From a virus (lineage: Duplodnaviria > Caudoviricetes), in the IMG/VR virus record IMGVR_UViG_3300025127_000033, positions 1 through 60,242 of that record: 60,242 bases of DNA. One strand, given 5' to 3'. Position numbers and translations under genes: made by a program. Each line of letters opens with the position of its first letter. The stretch's first letter is position 1. Shown here in pieces: positions 1 to 60,242 of this stretch. The notes below the pieces were generated by a model. That model was not told where the DNA came from. It did not search any database and was given only the letters and a program-made list of their open reading frames with translations.

Positions 1-83
1 TCAGCTACCTGATGATGAGTTTATTATCAGCAAATACACTTACACTGTAGATGGTCAATTCGTTGTTTACTCAGGATGGGTGG

Positions 84-806
84 ATGAAGAGGATTAACTG
101 GAACGAAGCGATACCATATATGTTCTGTATATTCCTTGCGTTTATGCTATTAAACAAGTGTGAGCAAGAGAAGGAGTATAAGCAGGAGATACAGCGAATC
201 AATAATAATAATGTTGCGCTACTAGACACTATCCGAAACTACATGGATGACGATGGAATGTACGCTGCTGATATCAGGGCACTGAACTTAAAGCTGGATG
301 AGCTAGGCGACAGCATATCAGTAGACAGATCTCAACCACCGGTAACCATAACCAATCAGACAACAGAGATACGAGAGACTATTGAAGTCCCTGCGTTTAT
401 ATATGACACCATTACTATAGTAAACACCGACACGTTCTATAAGCAGATATATGTGGAGCGCACAGATACGTTCGGCAAGAGCAACAGATCCATCGAGGTG
501 ACTATACCTACTGATGGCGTAGTAGTGGCAGATGCTATAATAAACTTGGAGCAGGACATATGGGTTGAGAACACGGTAGAGCAGAACAATAAGACAGGCG
601 AGGTATTCTTTAGAATGAGAACTGACTACCCAGGAGTTACGTTCAATAATGCCAACGCTATACTAGTAGAACCGAAGCAACTCGTTAAGGTACGAAAATC
701 ATTTGGCGTTGGTTTTCAGACAGGCATAGGCATCACAACAACGGGCAAACCAAGGCATTACATAGGTGTGGGTATACACTATTCGCCTAAGTTTTTACAA
801 TGGTAA
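84..806 (+). CDS. Membrane-anchored coiled-coil protein with C-terminal beta-strands; putative spanin-like lysis protein (allele A)
   Basis: ORF 51..806; ATG at 84 overlaps the upstream stop. N-terminal TM (AIPYMFCIFLAFMLL), coiled coil, C-terminal FGVGFQTGIG...YIGVGIHY..W; lies next to holin genes. Confidence 0.55.
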   Translation: MKRINWNEAIPYMFCIFLAFMLLNKCEQEKEYKQEIQRINNNNVALLDTIRNYMDDDGMYAADIRALNLKLDELGDSISVDRSQPPVTITNQTTEIRETIEVPAFIYDTITIVNTDTFYKQIYVERTDTFGKSNRSIEVTIPTDGVVVADAIINLEQDIWVENTVEQNNKTGEVFFRMRTDYPGVTFNNANAILVEPKQLVKVRKSFGVGFQTGIGITTTGKPRHYIGVGIHYSPKFLQW

Positions 807-48143: not shown

Positions 48144-48178
48144 AGATTATGATTTATAACGCACACCATTGTACGTTG

Positions 48179-48222
48179 AACCACGCAGAGGAATCGAACC
48201 TCTATTTATTCCAAACGTGGTT
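48179..48222 (-). ncRNA. Mini tRNA-like element 2 (acceptor-like stem plus T-arm)
   Basis: Minus strand AACCACG-[12 nt]-AGAGG-TTCGATT-CCTCT-G-CGTGGTT, followed by hairpin AACGTAC..GTGCGTT. Confidence 0.6.
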
Positions 48223-48231
48223 TTGGTACGC

Positions 48232-48414
48232 CTAAACGTCCCATTCGACTAGACCTAATTCGCCTAAGTCTACTTCGCCTATTTGTTCCATAAGCATGGC
48301 AATCTGGCGATCTGCTTCTTCACGGATTTCCGCCAGGCGAGTCTCCCTTGCTTCTTCAAGGATGTCTAAATGTCTGTTCAACTGAACAGAACTTGAGAAA
48401 ATAAAATTTGTCAT
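48232..48414 (-). CDS. Hypothetical coiled-coil early protein
   Basis: Likely start ATG 48414, downstream of the terminator at 48476-48499. Confidence 0.65.
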   Translation of the reverse strand: MTNFIFSSSVQLNRHLDILEEARETRLAEIREEADRQIAMLMEQIGEVDLGELGLVEWDV

Positions 48415-48475
48415 AGTAATAAATAGTGAGTGTGAAAATGATTTCACGTTAAAAAATCCCCTAACTATAGGGCAT

Positions 48476-48499
48476 AAAAAAAGGGACATAAATGTCCCT
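48476..48499 (-). terminator. Rho-independent terminator/attenuator after the first early gene
   Basis: Minus strand AGGGACA-TTTA-TGTCCCT followed by a T run. Confidence 0.8.
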
Positions 48500-48528
48500 A
48501 TCAAAAAATCATCTGAAGTCTGGCAGTC

Positions 48529-48894
48529 TTACTTTTTCTTAGCAACTTTTTTGCTTTCGATAAACTTACCAATCGCTTGAATAAAGAAGTACATGGAGAT
48601 TGCATCTTTGCGCTTTCCGTCTTTTGAATTCTTGCGGTATTCAGACATGAATTCCATTATCTTATTTGGATTTCCTTTACCTAATATTTGCTCTACCGTT
48701 ACTGATGTACCAAATTTTTCGTTTCTATCTTTTACAATAGCACGAATGGCTTTTTTACCAAGTTCATCATGAATGAAATATTTCATGTGACCACTCGGTG
48801 AAAGGTAGGTCTTGTTAATGAAATCTCTATGCTCTTTTGTGAGAACAGAAGTTAATGAAACGGTTTTCTTTGTGTTTGTCTTAATTTTTGACAT
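48529..48894 (-). CDS. Basic hypothetical protein, putative first early gene
   Basis: 121-aa K-rich ORF just downstream of tRNA-like element 1. Confidence 0.8.
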   Translation of the reverse strand: MSKIKTNTKKTVSLTSVLTKEHRDFINKTYLSPSGHMKYFIHDELGKKAIRAIVKDRNEKFGTSVTVEQILGKGNPNKIMEFMSEYRKNSKDGKRKDAISMYFFIQAIGKFIESKKVAKKK

Positions 48895-48932
48895 GATAAA
48901 TAATTAAATAATTAAAGTGCAATATTGCACAG

Positions 48933-48976
48933 AACCGTGCTAAAGAGTCGAACTTTAGTAAAGACCGTCCACGGTT
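48933..48976 (-). ncRNA. Mini tRNA-like element 1 (acceptor-like stem plus T-arm)
   Basis: Minus strand AACCGTG-[11 nt]-CTAAAG-TTCGACT-CTTTAG-CACGGTT, followed by palindrome GTGCAATATTGCAC (48917-48930). Confidence 0.6.
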
Positions 48977-48979
48977 TTA

Positions 48980-49492
48980 AGACCTAAGAAATAATTTTCT
49001 TTCGATGCGCTATTCTAAGTAACAGATAAACTTAACCCCTAACTTTCGTGTTGGGTGTTCCTTTTCGGATGTTGCCGCACATTGGCTATCTTGTGAATGA
49101 CTATTAGCGCCGCCTTCATTCGTCACAAGCGCCGTACACTTTCCCATTGATAATTTACTCCTACCTAATTGGCGAAATACTTTTCGTAAATCTTTTCCCT
49201 TTTATCTGTTGGGTTCTCCCCCAACAAACGCAACCATTCAAACCATTTGACATAGCCCTTGCGTGACTATAGACCCGAATGATATCGATAAAGTACTTCA
49301 TATTTCCCAATACCGAAATGCCCTTGCGTGACATATTGGCTTAGATTTCGTTCTCCTAACGTGTACTATTCAAGATGTTAAATAACGATATTACTTTCTC
49401 CATGAATGAGTGGTGAGTAATAACCCTTGTAGATATCAAAAGAAATAATATCAAGATTATTAGAGCACCTTGCCATTCCCACCGCCGTAATA
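48980..49492 (-). ncRNA. Candidate large structured non-coding RNA (~500 nt), family not recognised
   Basis: No ORF of 60 aa or more; nested long-range helices, two identical GCAA-tetraloop hairpins, G-U pairs mostly consistent with the minus strand; follows a promoter. Confidence 0.55.
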
Positions 49493-49497
49493 CAATA

Positions 49498-49529
49498 CAA
49501 AGATATACGAATACTTTTTACTTATGCAA
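49498..49529 (-). promoter_or_regulatory. Bacteroidota housekeeping-sigma-type promoter (putative main early promoter)
   Basis: Minus strand TTG-N21-TATCTTTG, matching the -33/-7 consensus; A/T-tract repeats upstream. Confidence 0.65.
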
Positions 49530-49539
49530 CTATTTTGCA

Positions 49540-49930
49540 AAAAAAAATTTCAAAAACTATAGGGCAGTCGGTGTAATCCTTTGGCATTCAATCAATTATG
49601 AAGTAAAAAAAATTTCAAAAAAATGCATATATATTGACTGGGGAGAGCAAAAATGTACACGTATACGCATAGAATGTGGTTATACTATGTCGCAAAATGT
49701 GCGAAGAAAAAACGTAAAACTTCGAAGTAAAATTGAATGGAATTTGTGCTGAACTTTTAGGTCATGATTTACGTAAAACTTTGGCGTAAATCTTTGGTGA
49801 AATATGAACGTAAAACGTCGAAGCGTTGCGTATACAAAATTTACAGGACATAGACAAAAAAAGATATTAACATATTAACATAGGGTAGTAATAAAAACGG
49901 CAAAAAATTGACCAAACGTTTGTTTGGTAA
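49540..49930. repeat. AT-rich non-coding region with short repeats (candidate genome end/packaging region)
   Basis: AAAAAAAATTTCAAAAA twice (49540, 49605); ACGTAAAAC three times (49712, 49771, 49808); inverted repeat ACCAAAC/GTTTGGT at 49911-49928. Confidence 0.6.
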
Positions 49931-50046
49931 AAAGCAAAAACAAGGCAGGGGGTCATTTTATTAATTATAAAAAAATTACAAAACGCTATAGAACCCGAAA
50001 CCTACAGGTGTCTCGTGAATTTTATACTTTTACAAAAACAAAGACA

Positions 50047-50226
50047 ATGGAAGGATTACGAATTCAGAACGGCAGGTTAATCAATGACAGACCTGATTCA
50101 ATTACAGGGTTGCAGAGAATGGCCCGCATGAAGAAGGCTATTAAGAGACAAGAGAAGATCTCTATGATGGTAGATGCAATGCGTCGCAAAGACATGCTGG
50201 ACGATATTAAATCACTGAGCAAGTAG
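50047..50226 (+). CDS. Small basic hypothetical protein
   Basis: Likely start ATG 50047 (MEGLRIQNGRLIN) after an A-rich leader. Confidence 0.65.
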   Translation: MEGLRIQNGRLINDRPDSITGLQRMARMKKAIKRQEKISMMVDAMRRKDMLDDIKSLSK

Positions 50227-50857
50227 TATAGAAGTAGTTATCACTATCTTCGGTTATCCACTTCTCGTGCCCCTCAGCATTGTATGTCTGGGTGCATACC
50301 TTGTAGTCAGGCTTCTTGGGGAAATCTTTCGTGGTGAATGATGGTTCGATCCATCGCACCCTATTGTTAGGTTGCAGAGCAAAGCACCCATTATCTAGTA
50401 TTATTATGTGATGCGACTTATGTTCGTGCGGAGTCTCACTTAGTGTGAGGTCAGCATTCTCATTTGTCTCACATGCCCATTGTATTGTACATAGGTATTC
50501 ACCATCGTACCATTTACGGTCCTTCATAAACACCGATGCTGTCGCATCTGCTATATATGCCAACTCCACAACGGAGAACGTCTTACTAAAACTATTCCAT
50601 AGACACAGCTGGTGAAACGGCATATGTGGCACATCATGAGGATTAGCATCCTTATCTATCAATGCAGAGCACGGAAGTTTATCTCTCATTACGCCATTCT
50701 CAAGAAGAACCTGGAACAGGGGCACTTGACCCGGCAAGCATCTAACGGATACAATCCGCCCTAGTAAGAACTCACCGTGATGAGATTTCATATCGTATAA
50801 GTATTCAGCACGTACCCACACATCTACAGGTGGGAAACTAGATTCTATGTAAGCCAT
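50207..50857 (-). CDS. Hypothetical phage protein
   Basis: 216 aa; EHKSHH and LQPNNR motifs. Confidence 0.8.
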   Translation of the reverse strand: MAYIESSFPPVDVWVRAEYLYDMKSHHGEFLLGRIVSVRCLPGQVPLFQVLLENGVMRDKLPCSALIDKDANPHDVPHMPFHQLCLWNSFSKTFSVVELAYIADATASVFMKDRKWYDGEYLCTIQWACETNENADLTLSETPHEHKSHHIIILDNGCFALQPNNRVRWIEPSFTTKDFPKKPDYKVCTQTYNAEGHEKWITEDSDNYFYTTCSVI

Positions 50858-52235: not shown

Positions 52236-52309
52236 TACTCCCATCAGGACTCGAACCTGAAACCTACTGCTTAGAAGGCAGTTGCTCTATCCAGTTGAGC
52301 TATAGGAGC
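52236..52309 (-). tRNA. trnR: tRNA-Arg (anticodon TCT)
   Basis: Full cloverleaf: GCTCCTA/TGGGAGT acceptor, D-arm GCTC..GAGC, anticodon arm ACTGC-CTTCTAA-GCAGT, T-arm TCAGG-TTCGAGT-CCTGA; CCA not encoded. Confidence 0.95.
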
Positions 52310-59204: not shown

Positions 59205-59467
59205 TGAAATTTTTAGTAACAGAATCAGACAGACAGATTTGCTTAATAGCAGATAATATTATACTAGAGGATGATGGCGTGTACTATGCCTGGAATGACG
59301 CTACCCCACATAAAGTTCAGAGAGCTAACTCGACGGATACGCTAGAAATAGTTGACGTTCCTGAGGGCACTCAGCTACCTGATGATGAGTTTATTATCAG
59401 CAAATACACTTACACTGTAGATGGTCAATTCGTTGTTTACTCAGGATGGGTGGATGAAGAAGTTTAA
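59204..59467 (+). CDS. Small acidic protein (fibre-assembly-like)
   Basis: 87 aa after the fibre gene; LPDDEF..KYTY..GQF. Confidence 0.6.
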   Translation: MKFLVTESDRQICLIADNIILEDDGVYYAWNDATPHKVQRANSTDTLEIVDVPEGTQLPDDEFIISKYTYTVDGQFVVYSGWVDEEV

Positions 59468-60242
59468 TTGGAACGAAGCCATACCATATATGTTCTGCAT
59501 ATTCCTTGCGTTCATGCTACTAAACAAGTGTGAGCAGGAGAAGGAGTATCAGCAGGAGATACAGCGAATACAAAACAACAACGTTGCACTATTAGACACT
59601 ATCCGAAACTACATGGATAGCGATGGGCTATATGCTGCCGATATCAGGGCACTGAACTTAAAGCTAGATGAGCTAGGTGATAGCATAGCAGTCAATAGGT
59701 CTCAGCCACCTGTAACCATAACCAATCAGACAACAGAGATACGAGAGACTATTGAAGTCCCTGCGTTTATATACGACACGATCACAATAGTGAACACCGA
59801 CACGTTCTATAAGCAGATATATGTGGAGCGCACAGACACGTTCGGCAAGAGCAACAGGTCCATCGAGGTGACCATACCTACCGATGGTGTGGTAGTGGCG
59901 GATGCCATAATAAACCTAGAGCAGGACATATGGGTTGAGAACACGGTAGAGCAGAACAAGAAGACAGGTGAGGTGTTCTTTAGAATGAGAACTGACTATC
60001 CAGGAGTTAGGTTCAACAATGCCAACGCTATACTAGTAGACCCGAAGCAACTCGTTAAGGTACGAAAATCATTTGGCGTTGGTTTTCAGACAGGTATAGG
60101 CATCACAACAACGGGTCAAACAAGGCATTACATAGGTGTGGGAATCCACTATTCGCCTAAGTTTTTACAATGGTAAAAAAGTATTAATTTTAAGGGCATG
60201 AAACTGATAACGAAAGAGACCGTTGTCGGCATGCCAATGTCA
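59371..60242. repeat. Imperfect terminal direct repeat, right copy
   Basis: Matches 1-872. Confidence 0.97.
59454..60176 (+). CDS. Putative spanin-like protein (allele B of 84-806)
   Basis: Same length as allele A, about 13 amino-acid differences. Confidence 0.55.
   Translation: MKKFNWNEAIPYMFCIFLAFMLLNKCEQEKEYQQEIQRIQNNNVALLDTIRNYMDSDGLYAADIRALNLKLDELGDSIAVNRSQPPVTITNQTTEIRETIEVPAFIYDTITIVNTDTFYKQIYVERTDTFGKSNRSIEVTIPTDGVVVADAIINLEQDIWVENTVEQNKKTGEVFFRMRTDYPGVRFNNANAILVDPKQLVKVRKSFGVGFQTGIGITTTGQTRHYIGVGIHYSPKFLQW

What the first reader, a model, noticed from the sequence alone, without database searches (positions are those of the whole stretch)
48980..49492. Candidate ~500-nt ornate non-coding RNA as the first product of the early promoter
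Seen: ORF-free region between a consensus promoter (49498-49529) and tRNA-like element 1. Complementary pairs (plus coordinates): 49021-49030/49201-49210 (10 bp, closes ~170 nt), 49280-49286/49432-49438, 49389-49395/49416-49422, 49292-49296/49363-49367, 49307-49312/49334-49339, 49090-49096/49123-49129, 49207-49213/49220-49226; minus-strand ATTTAC/GTAAAT; a 12-bp helix ATCATTCGGGTC/GGTTTGAATGGT whose five G-U pairs work only on the minus strand; and a possible pseudoknot 49105-49110/49007-49012. Some helices are mutually exclusive. Known: phages carry large structured RNAs such as GOLLD and ROOL, often near tRNAs; I cannot match this one to a family. Inference: a possibly undescribed large ncRNA whose 3' end is cut at the tRNA mimic (MALAT1/mascRNA-like logic), perhaps a decoy/sponge, antitermination or anti-defence RNA.
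Basis: partly seen in the sequence, partly recalled or inferred. Interest (0 to 1): 0.85.

Follow-up and report, generated by a model that had tools for sequence, protein, structure and literature searches.

The report
Structured 515-nt early phage RNA
A marine phage starts its leftward early transcript with about 515 bases of non-coding RNA whose folded shape, rather than its sequence, has been kept in evolution, and it matches no known RNA family.

Summary
The stretch is real non-coding sequence on the minus strand. It lies between a conserved promoter-like site (49529-49498) and a tRNA-like minihelix (48976-48933).

Folding the window alone is unimpressive: z = -1.43. Comparison with the only relative lineage found (L002/L119, about 90% identical, no indels) is decisive:
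- The consensus fold has 149 pairs with 12 compensatory double changes and none broken.
- Column shuffles give 1.4 +/- 1.1 such changes, at most 5 (0 of 200 reach 12).
- With the same sites but random letters the mean is 4.8 and the maximum 9 (0 of 150).
- One 12-bp long-range helix carries four of the changes.

Four of five small minus-strand ORFs have stops in the relative. Rfam gives nothing.

The RNA is therefore real and apparently undescribed, but known from only two or three lineages. Whether it is released at the tRNA-like element as a separate RNA, or acts as a cis leader for the 121-aa gene and the terminators behind it, is inferred and untested. No RNA data were available.

The parts
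49498..49529 (-). Promoter-like site: TTG, 21 bases, TATCTTTG. It also reads as TTGCAT-16-TATATC.
   Evidence: Read directly. One substitution against L002 across it, while the DNA further upstream is 72-84% identical with indels. The TAnnTTTG motif is the only one on the minus strand between 55031 and 39268. The motif is not enriched genome-wide (18 and 31 hits per strand). The consensus itself is recalled, not from a call.
49390..49491 (-). 5' domain: one long imperfect hairpin (alignment A2 columns 7-108). It starts at about the expected transcription start.
   Evidence: 34 pairs. Two compensatory pairs (cols 10/105 A-U to G-C; 22/92 A-U to U-G) and two one-sided changes that keep pairing.
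49088..49376 (-). Central multi-branch domain (columns 122-410). It contains both GCAA hairpins and the long-range helix.
   Evidence: Closing helices at columns 122-130/400-410 and 132-137/359-364 are invariant, so unproven. The inner helices carry 7 compensatory pairs.
49168..49311 (-). Best-supported substructure: a 12-bp helix, 49300-49311 with 49168-49180, enclosing a three-way junction.
   Evidence: 4 of its 12 pairs changed on both sides and stayed paired (cols 187/330, 188/329, 190/327, 193/323).
49313..49339 (-). Hairpin 1: stem with bulged A and GCAA tetraloop. Core GUCACGCAAGGGC at 49320-49332.
   Evidence: The exact 13-mer occurs twice in the window, 65 nt apart, and nowhere else at up to 2 mismatches. 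It is invariant in L002.
49251..49271 (-). Hairpin 2: second copy of the same GCAA hairpin. Core at 49255-49267.
   Evidence: The stem pair at cols 230/244 changes A-U to G-C in L002.
49204..49229 (-). 10-bp hairpin GUUUGUUGGG/CCCAACAGAU.
   Evidence: The apical pair changes G-C to A-U in L002 (cols 278/285). L119 adds G-C to G-U at col 286.
48982..49086 (-). 3' domain (columns 412-516): closing helices plus four small hairpins.
   Evidence: 3 compensatory pairs (cols 419/490, 421/488, 444/460). This part folds differently when L119 is added, so its topology is the least certain.
48933..48976 (-). tRNA-like minihelix 1: 7-bp acceptor-like stem, 11-nt linker, 6-bp T-like stem, loop UUCGACU.
   Evidence: Found by my stem-loop scan. 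In L002 the shape is kept with 6 pairs changed on both sides. ARAGORN and the Rfam tRNA model do not call it.
48917..48930 (-). Small hairpin GUGCA-AUAU-UGCAC followed by a U/A-rich tract, 22 nt before the ATG.
   Evidence: Listed as terminator-like. L002 has different hairpins at the same place. Its role (weak terminator or 5' stabiliser of the mRNA) is inferred.
48529..48894 (-). First early ORF: 121 aa, lysine-rich, no known family.
   Evidence: No PHROG or Pfam match. One homologue cluster at 95% identity among 5.8 billion proteins. AlphaFold model is all-helical with low confidence, pLDDT 59.8.
48459..48499 (-). Two tandem intrinsic-terminator-like hairpins that close the short unit.
   Evidence: a 7-bp stem followed by TTTTTTA, then a 5-bp stem followed by a T-rich tail (GATTTTTT). 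The bin 48400-48499 is 99% identical in the relative.

Best explanation
SHOWN
- The minus strand from about 49491 to 48977 specifies a non-coding RNA of about 515 nt.
- It folds into three domains: a 5' hairpin domain, a central multi-branch domain with two identical GCAA-tetraloop hairpins, and a 3' domain.
- Selection has kept the base-pairing, not the sequence.

INFERRED
- It is the first thing transcribed from the leftward early promoter at 49529-49498.
- The tRNA-like minihelix that follows it, 5 nt after the last helix, is recognised by the host's tRNA-processing enzymes. RNase P would cut on its 5' side and a 3' tRNA-end nuclease on its 3' side.
- The folded RNA is thereby released as a separate, stable molecule, and the mRNA of the 121-aa gene is left with a hairpin at its 5' end.

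GUESSED
- The released RNA acts in trans as a scaffold or decoy early in infection. The two identical hairpins would serve either as binding sites for one ligand or as tetraloops that hold the fold together.

The confidence of 0.45 is for this whole model. For the shown part alone, that a conserved RNA structure exists, I would say about 0.9.
For: STRUCTURE
- RNAalifold on the gap-free 520-column alignment of window and L002 gives 149 pairs, 12 compensatory, 7 one-sided and 0 broken, at -115.7 kcal/mol.
- 200 column shuffles give 1.4 +/- 1.1 compensatory pairs (max 5) and -90.2 +/- 5.9 kcal/mol. None of the 200 reaches either observed value.
- With the substituted sites kept but the letters randomised, compensatory pairs average 4.8 (max 9); 0 of 150 reach 12.
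- In the count of structure pairs all 324 cells are paired. 18 pairs changed on both sides, minihelix included, against 0-2 when partners are slid by 1-3 columns.
- The structure predicted from L002 alone has 7 compensatory, 8 kept and 9 broken pairs when tested on the window.
- The structure predicted from the window alone has 3, 6 and 14, against a null of 0.7, 9.5 and 21.6. P = 0.03 for compensatory pairs and 0.007 for few broken pairs.

STRAND
- The plus-strand consensus energy is only -84.3.

NOT CODING
- The 57-, 40-, 32- and 26-aa ORFs have stops in L002.
- The 45-aa ORF differs at 9 of 45 residues, with substitutions 2/4/4 by codon position.
- A third lineage (run X2) has a 1-base insertion inside that ORF.
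- No tblastx match to relatives' genes.

BOUNDARIES
- The first helix starts 7 nt after the promoter motif. The last helix ends 5 nt before the minihelix.

MINIHELIX
- Its shape is kept with 6 double changes.
- A second copy sits between later genes.

BACKGROUND
- RNase P cleaves tRNA-like structures, the phage C4 antisense RNA precursor and operon mRNAs (review PMC11143913; passages seen).
Against: - Single-sequence folding is not better than shuffles (z = -1.43).
- Only two independent lineages could be read in full. L119 and run X10 are L002-like, and run X5 equals the window.
- RNAalifold avoids broken pairs by construction.
- The two independent single-sequence folds share only 68 pairs, out of 164 and 166.
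- The 3' half refolds when L119 is added, so the topology is provisional.
- The long closing helices never vary.
- The stretch evolves faster (87-91% identity) than neighbouring genes, which are mostly 94-99%.
- It is absent from closer and farther relatives that share the neighbouring gene, so it is dispensable for the phage group.
- No evidence of transcription, processing, stability or trans action.
- The minihelix stack is 7 + 6 = 13 bp, not the 12 of tRNA.
- ARAGORN and the Rfam tRNA model do not accept the minihelix.
Confidence: 0.45

Rival explanations
1. The structure is a cis-acting leader and stays part of the mRNA. It would control the 121-aa gene or let RNA polymerase read through the hairpin at 48930-48917 and the two terminators at 48499-48459. 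That layout resembles lambda pL-nutL-N-tL1, or the HK022 put RNAs just downstream of early promoters. The two identical GCAA hairpins would be the protein- or polymerase-binding sites, and the lysine-rich 121-aa protein a possible partner.
For: - Layout: promoter, leader, small basic orphan ORF, two strong terminator-like hairpins, then more genes on the same strand.
- No further TAnnTTTG motif on the minus strand down to 39268.
- The exact 13-nt hairpin core is repeated 65 nt apart.
- All the structural evidence fits this reading equally well.
- The lambda and HK022 parallels are recalled knowledge, not taken from a call.
Against: - 515 nt is far larger than known nut or put elements.
- The hairpin core occurs nowhere else in the genome, so there is no second 'nut' site.
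- ORF121 has no recognisable RNA-binding or antiterminator family. Its only lead is a weak Myb/SANT-like resemblance, score 0.84, below the tool's 0.9 line.
- A tRNA-like minihelix right after the structure is not explained by this model.
Confidence: 0.33
2. The pairing acts at the DNA level, for example as a replication origin, a packaging site or single-stranded-DNA hairpins, and not in an RNA.
For: - The 1.3-kb gene-poor stretch also holds repeats typical of control regions: ACGTAAAACTT-like x3 at 49712-49827.
- Watson-Crick compensatory changes are symmetric between strands; the plus-strand fold still shows 9 compensatory pairs.
Against: - Many pairs are G-U on the minus strand and would be A-C on the plus strand. 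Consensus energy is -115.7 against -84.3.
- The structure begins exactly at a conserved promoter and runs in the direction of the downstream genes.
- The repeats lie upstream of the promoter, outside the structured part.
Confidence: 0.04
3. It is ordinary intergenic or 5'-UTR sequence without a selected structure, and the compensatory pattern is chance or an artefact of fitting a fold to two sequences.
For: - Single-sequence z-score is -1.43.
- There are only two lineages.
- The fold was chosen by a program that rewards covariation.
- Identity is lower than in the flanking genes.
Against: - Both shuffle controls used the same program and never reached the observed count: 0 of 200 and 0 of 150.
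- Four double changes sit in one 12-bp helix.
- There are no indels in 520 nt, while the intergenic DNA just upstream has several.
- The only indel seen in a third lineage, behind 49114, falls in a predicted hairpin loop.
Confidence: 0.06
4. One or more short proteins are encoded here, for example the 45-aa ORF at 49147..49010 or the 57-aa ORF at 49334..49161.
For: - Start-to-stop ORFs of 26-57 aa exist on the minus strand.
- The 45-aa frame is open in both lineages.
Against: - Four of the five ORFs have stops in L002.
- The 45-aa ORF changes 9 of 45 residues through 10 substitutions and loses its stop in L002.
- Run X2 has a frameshifting insertion in it.
- No stop-free frame longer than 74 codons exists in either lineage on any of the six frames.
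Confidence: 0.02

Closest known systems
GOLLD and ROOL (large ornate RNAs of phages and prophages)
   Same: A large, many-helix non-coding RNA encoded by a phage and sitting next to tRNA-type sequence. GOLLD and ROOL are described as often lying near tRNA islands, with tRNAs sometimes inside the GOLLD linker (bioRxiv 10.1101/2024.12.08.627333; passages seen).
   Different: - No similarity to either Rfam model at E up to 10.
- About 515 nt.
- Sits directly behind an early promoter and in front of a protein gene.
- Followed by a truncated tRNA mimic rather than real tRNAs.
- Known from only two or three lineages.
- No evidence of multimer or cage formation.
MALAT1-mascRNA and other RNAs matured by RNase P at a tRNA-like structure (phage P1/P7 C4 RNA precursor, operon mRNAs)
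   Same: A long RNA is followed immediately by a tRNA-like fold that could define its 3' end through RNase P. RNase P substrates of this sort are listed in PMC11143913. The MALAT1 case is recalled, not from a call.
   Different: - Cleavage is untested here.
- The mimic lacks D and anticodon arms.
- It lies inside a protein-coding operon, and a second copy lies between later genes. That looks more like the tRNA punctuation of mitochondrial transcripts (PMC3790967; abstract seen in the listing).
Lambda nutL/boxB with N, and HK022 put RNA (leader RNAs that make polymerase terminator-resistant)
   Same: Position just downstream of an early promoter. Small hairpins with GNRA-type loops. A small basic first gene followed by terminators. 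The comparison rests on recalled knowledge.
   Different: - Five to seven times larger.
- No boxA/boxB match.
- No second site elsewhere in the genome.
- No arginine-rich motif was identified, and no family match for ORF121.

Membership tests
Any Rfam 15 family (including GOLLD, ROOL, OLE, HEARO, riboswitches, ribozymes, introns, 6S, tmRNA, RNase P RNA) | Score at or above the family's gathering threshold with its covariance model | tested here: not met
   The whole window at gathering thresholds gives only tRNA-Arg at 52236-52309. 48400-50300 at E up to 10 gives 10 weak hits of 12.8-21.5 bits, all far below their thresholds. None lies in 49020-49502, and only rli23 (48902-49019, 18.2 bits) reaches into the finding's interval.
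tRNA (for the element at 48933-48976) | Cloverleaf with D arm, anticodon arm, T arm and acceptor stem | tested here: not met
   ARAGORN finds only tRNA-Arg. There is no Rfam tRNA hit at E up to 10. Only the acceptor-like and T-like stems with a UUCGAYU loop are present.
tmRNA | tRNA-like domain formed by the two ends, with pseudoknots and a tag reading frame in between | tested here: not met
   ARAGORN reports no tmRNA. The minihelix is contiguous, with an 11-15 nt linker, and lies after the large RNA rather than around it.
RNase P-matured RNA (works-like claim, not homology) | A coaxial acceptor/T-stem stack with a T-loop immediately 3' of the RNA to be released | tested here: met
   7-bp plus 6-bp stems and a UUCGAYU loop, kept in L002 through 6 double changes. 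The stack is 13 bp, not 12.
RNase P-matured RNA (works-like claim, not homology) | Cleavage at the 5' side of the mimic in vivo or in vitro | not testable with these tools
   No RNA run holds the sequence. Read laying gave DNA contigs only.
Lambda-type nut site with N protein | boxB hairpin repeated at the head of each early operon, plus an arginine-rich N-type protein | tested here: not met
   The hairpin core occurs only twice, both times in this leader. ORF121 has no family match.
Conserved structured RNA (general criterion) | Compensatory base changes in excess of matched controls | tested here: met
   12 observed. Column shuffles give 1.4 +/- 1.1, with 0 of 200 reaching 12. Same sites with random letters give 4.8, with 0 of 150 reaching 12. 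Slid partners give 0-2. Only two lineages were available.
Protein-coding gene | An open frame kept between relatives, with a substitution pattern showing purifying selection | tested here: not met
   Stops in 4 of 5 small ORFs. The fifth changes 9 of 45 residues and carries a frameshift insertion in run X2.

The most novel reading that the evidence does not exclude
This is the founding member of a new class of large, multi-domain phage RNA. It would be made as the very first product of infection. The host's own tRNA-processing enzymes would cut it free at a built-in tRNA-like minihelix. It would then act in trans as a scaffold, cage or decoy, with its two identical GCAA hairpins as the contact points. 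The same minihelices would punctuate the early operon.
Probability: 0.3. Interest if true: 0.8.

Novelty: new variant of a known kind. Interest (0 to 1): 0.62.

Why it matters
Structured bacterial and phage RNAs above 400 nt are few, and each new one has opened new biology. This one has a clear start (a conserved promoter), a clear possible end (a tRNA mimic) and strong compensatory evolution, so it is ready for direct tests:
- a Northern blot or RNA-seq
- an RNase P cleavage assay
- chemical probing
- cryo-EM

If the minihelices really are processing signals, the phage would be using tRNA punctuation to cut up its early transcript. I found no report of that for a double-stranded DNA phage in the literature searches, which were listings only.

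The limits matter too. The RNA is confined to a very small clade of marine phages, the host is unknown, and nothing is yet known about expression.

Tried and rejected
HOMOLOGUE SEARCHES
- blastn of 48900-49600 against 50,697 GenBank phage records: no match.
- blastn of 48900-50206 against 81 IMG/VR loci around relatives of the neighbouring gene. Only one contig (L002 = L082) holds the leader. L003-L005 share short pieces upstream only.
- tblastx of the leader against the same loci: nothing below E = 1.
- nhmmer with the 3-sequence alignment over all held loci: only L002, L082, L092 and L119, plus the second minihelix.
- Covariance model R1 (172 positions) over 83 other loci: best hit 17.1 bits, E = 0.2. 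Over the whole records behind L003-L007: best E = 0.98.

PATTERN SCANS
- IMG/VR double-hairpin scan: 10 stretches, only L092 (the same contig) true.
- Metagenome scan: 51 stretches, only L119 true; the rest are tandem or dispersed repeats.
- Minihelix pattern: same contig only.
- Two conserved 18-19-mers: same contig, plus L155, which shares only 19 nt.
- GTDB genome scan: two tandem-repeat loci, unrelated.

RNA EVIDENCE
- No RNA holder was listed by the look-up of sequencing runs; all 24 runs are DNA.
- Read laying showed parts without cover. It truncated the list of differences (149 not shown), so the third lineage (X2) could not be read out in full.

ORF121
- No PHROG or Pfam match.
- AlphaFold model of low confidence, so no fold search was run.
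- The Atlas gave a lead only.

REJECTED READINGS
- A CRISPR-repeat mimic was considered for the two hairpins spaced 65 nt apart. The metagenome loci with the same 11-mer are plain tandem repeats, not arrays related to this RNA.
- A 7-bp extra helix, columns 112-118 with 250-256, carries one double change. I record it as a possible pseudoknot only.

LITERATURE
- Searches gave no description of this RNA.
- I saw listings, plus passages of two papers. Supplements were not opened.
Full report
WHAT THE WINDOW IS
The window is a complete 60,242-base virus record. Its genes lie on the plus strand up to about 33.5 kb and again from 52.5 kb. Genes between about 33.5 and 52 kb lie on the minus strand. 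DNA runs that hold it are marine or estuarine metagenomes. A Shine-Dalgarno word precedes only 3 of 45 long ORFs.

THE STRETCH AND ITS SURROUNDINGS
Read on the minus strand, the locus runs in this order:
- a gene of PHROG 3704, ending at 50207;
- about 680 nt of gene-poor DNA with three ACGTAAAACTT-like repeats and A/T tracts;
- a promoter-like site, TTG-N21-TATCTTTG, at 49529-49498;
- the stretch in question;
- a tRNA-like minihelix at 48976-48933;
- a small hairpin at 48930-48917;
- a 121-aa ORF at 48894-48529;
- two terminator-like hairpins at 48499-48459.
The finding's interval has no ORF of 60 aa or more. It holds only ORFs of 26-57 aa.

KNOWN FAMILIES
Rfam 15 at gathering thresholds finds only the phage's tRNA-Arg at 52236-52309. 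A permissive scan of 48400-50300 at E up to 10 gives ten noise-level hits. None lies between 49020 and 49502; only the weak rli23 hit (48902-49019, 18.2 bits) reaches into the finding's interval. ARAGORN finds no tmRNA and no further tRNA.

SINGLE-SEQUENCE FOLDING
The minus strand folds to -122.5 kcal/mol against -114.3 +/- 5.7 for shuffles. That is z = -1.43, and 8 of 100 shuffles fold as well. The plus strand gives z = -0.61. On this test alone the finding would fail.

RELATIVES
- 394 IMG/VR stretches encode relatives of the neighbouring PHROG 3704 gene, and 80 loci were kept.
- Only one contig (L002 = L082 = L092) holds the leader, at 87% identity over 1,243 nt.
- L003-L005 have a neighbouring protein 90-98% identical, yet different early genes start soon after the control region.
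It differs from L002 at one base of the leader.
- Laying contigs of four DNA runs showed three things:
  - a copy identical to the window (X5);
  - an L002-like copy (X10);
  - a third, intermediate lineage (X2). It has 19 differences and one inserted base behind 49114 within 48979-49382, where L002 has 39 differences. Its full list of differences was cut off.
- So only two lineages can be compared base by base.

NOT CODING
- Window and L002 align without a single gap from 49517 to 49017, and 53 substitutions lie between 49500 and 48975.
- The 57-, 40-, 32- and 26-aa ORFs all carry stops in L002.
- The 45-aa ORF stays open but changes 9 of 45 residues, with substitutions spread 2/4/4 over codon positions, and loses its stop.
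- The X2 insertion falls inside that ORF.
- No frame on either strand is stop-free for more than 74 codons.
- tblastx finds no protein-level likeness to relatives' genes.

CONSERVED STRUCTURE
RNAalifold on the two sequences, with the minihelix included, predicts 162 pairs. 18 of them changed on both sides and stayed paired: 12 in the leader and 6 in the minihelix.

For the 520 leader columns alone there are 149 pairs: 12 compensatory, 7 one-sided and none broken, at -115.7 kcal/mol. RNAalifold seeks such pairs, so I ran controls with the same program:
- 200 shuffles of columns, keeping conserved and variable columns in place, gave 1.4 +/- 1.1 compensatory pairs (max 5) and -90.2 +/- 5.9 kcal/mol (best -107.9). 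None reached the observed values.
- A harder control kept the 52 substituted sites and the transition count and drew only the new letters at random. It gave 4.8 +/- 1.8 (max 9). 0 of 150 reached 12, and 1 of 150 reached the observed energy.
- The count of structure pairs gave 100% of 324 cells paired. With the 3' partners slid by 1-3 columns, 34-41% of cells paired and 0-2 double changes remained.
- Structures predicted from one sequence only, and so not fitted to the other, are weaker but point the same way. The L002-only fold tested on the window has 7 compensatory, 8 kept and 9 broken pairs. The window-only fold tested on L002 has 3, 6 and 14, against a null of 0.7, 9.5 and 21.6 (P = 0.03 and 0.007).
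- The plus strand reaches only -84.3 kcal/mol, because many pairs are G-U on the minus strand.

ANATOMY
Column c of alignment A2 corresponds to window position 49498 - c.
- A 5' hairpin domain at 49491-49390 has 2 compensatory pairs.
- A central domain at 49376-49088 is closed by two helices that never vary. It contains:
  - hairpin 1 (49339-49313);
  - a 12-bp helix, 49311-49300 with 49180-49168, carrying four compensatory pairs;
  - hairpin 2 (49271-49251), with one compensatory pair;
  - a 10-bp hairpin (49229-49204), with one;
  - a hairpin at 49133-49106, with one.
- A 3' domain at 49086-48982 has three compensatory pairs.

Hairpins 1 and 2 share the exact 13-mer GUCACGCAAGGGC: a stem with a bulged A and a GCAA tetraloop. 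The two copies are 65 nt apart and occur nowhere else in the genome.

The first helix begins 7 nt after the promoter motif. The last ends 5 nt before the minihelix.

Caveats on the topology:
- The two single-sequence folds share only 68 pairs.
- The 3' half refolds when L119 is added.
- The topology outside the helices with double changes is therefore provisional.
- A further 7-bp pairing, columns 112-118 with 250-256, has one double change and may be a pseudoknot.

- One is confirmed by covariation (49207-13/49220-26).
- One is kept through a one-sided change.
- Two are invariant. The 10-bp pair closing 170 nt also occurs by chance in 6 of 60 shuffles.
- Three helices and the proposed pseudoknot lose pairs in L002.

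THE tRNA-LIKE ELEMENTS
- Element 1 has a 7-bp acceptor-like stem, a short linker, a 6-bp T-like stem and the loop UUCGACU.
- In L002 the same shape is built from different letters, with 6 double changes.
- The L002 version closely resembles element 2 of both phages, which lies at about 48220-48175 between the second and third early genes.
- The shape is therefore under selection and the module has been exchanged.
- Neither ARAGORN nor the Rfam tRNA model accepts these elements.

RATE OF CHANGE
The leader is 87-91% identical per 100 nt. Neighbouring genes are mostly 94-99%. The DNA upstream of the promoter is 72-84% identical with indels. So the sequence is free to change, the pairing is not, and length is kept.

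HOW IT MOST LIKELY WORKS
Shown: a non-coding, strand-specific, conserved fold that fills the space between a conserved promoter-like site and a conserved tRNA mimic.

Inferred:
- Transcription from that promoter.
- Cutting at the mimic by RNase P and a 3' tRNA-end nuclease, which would release an RNA of about 515 nt. RNase P is known to accept tRNA-like structures, a phage antisense RNA precursor and operon mRNAs (PMC11143913; passages seen).
- An mRNA for ORF121 that then starts with a hairpin.

Guessed: a trans-acting scaffold or decoy role.

Odds:
- About 0.9 that the conserved RNA structure is real.
- About 0.45 for the released-RNA model as a whole.
- About 0.33 for the main rival, a cis-acting leader. 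It rests on the layout of promoter, leader with two identical GNRA hairpins, small basic orphan gene, two terminators and more genes with no further TAnnTTTG word on that strand down to 39268. That layout recalls lambda pL-nutL-N-tL1 and the HK022 put RNAs, a comparison I make from memory.
- The two models are not exclusive.

COMPARISON WITH THE KNOWN
It works like, but is not a member of, the large phage RNAs GOLLD and ROOL. Those are also phage-borne and found by tRNAs (10.1101/2024.12.08.627333; passages seen). The Rfam models were tested here and the criterion was not met. The coupling to a tRNA mimic resembles RNase P-matured RNAs. The second mimic between later genes resembles tRNA punctuation of organelle transcripts (PMC3790967; abstract only, in the listing).

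VERDICT
This is a real and apparently undescribed structured RNA of about 515 nt, with unusually clear boundaries. It is known from a very small clade, and nothing is known about its expression.

Noticed in passing
window 48175-48220 (-): A second tRNA-like minihelix (ACCACG..AGAGG-UUCGAUU-CCUCU..CGUGGU) lies between the second and third early genes. The matched 45-nt element sequence is letter-for-letter the same in L002. L002's first minihelix is of this type rather than the window's type, so the module seems to have been exchanged.
   Followed up: partly
window 48459-48499 (-): Two tandem intrinsic-terminator-like hairpins sit right after the 121-aa ORF. More minus-strand genes follow, and I could find no promoter word between them. 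Read-through or antitermination may be needed.
   Followed up: partly
window 49712-49827: Three direct repeats of ACGTAAAACTT-like sequence lie upstream of the early promoter and are largely kept in L002. There are also two copies of an A/T-rich 15-mer at 49541-49555 and 49606-49620. These may be operator or iteron sites of the control region.
   Followed up: no
window 49990-50226 (+): This block is 95-99% identical to L002 although it lies beyond the end of the PHROG 3704 gene. It holds a plus-strand ORF (49924..50226, 100 aa from TTG) with no family match. It may be a small divergently read regulator gene.
   Followed up: no
window 51-806 and 59421-60176 (+): Two 251-aa ORFs of equal length have identical 22-nt upstream sequences at the two ends of the record. 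This suggests a terminal repeat or an assembly overlap of a circularly permuted genome, although the record is classed as linear.
   Followed up: no
L135 and L142 (metagenome contigs): Hairpins carry the same loop words (UCACGCAAGGGA) on quite different stems (GAGUUGU/ACAACUC), repeated within each contig. These contigs are unrelated to the window by blastn. The recurrence of this loop motif is unexplained.
   Followed up: no
window 50207-50857 (-): The PHROG 3704 protein (labelled ferredoxin; labelled PurM in some records) has about 40% identical relatives in Synechococcus, Prochlorococcus, Pelagibacter and Flavobacterium phages. That is a marine phage auxiliary gene with conflicting annotations.
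   Followed up: no
window, all long ORFs: Only 3 of 45 ORFs of 100 aa or more have a Shine-Dalgarno word within 22 nt upstream. Most starts are preceded by A/T-rich sequence.
   Followed up: partly
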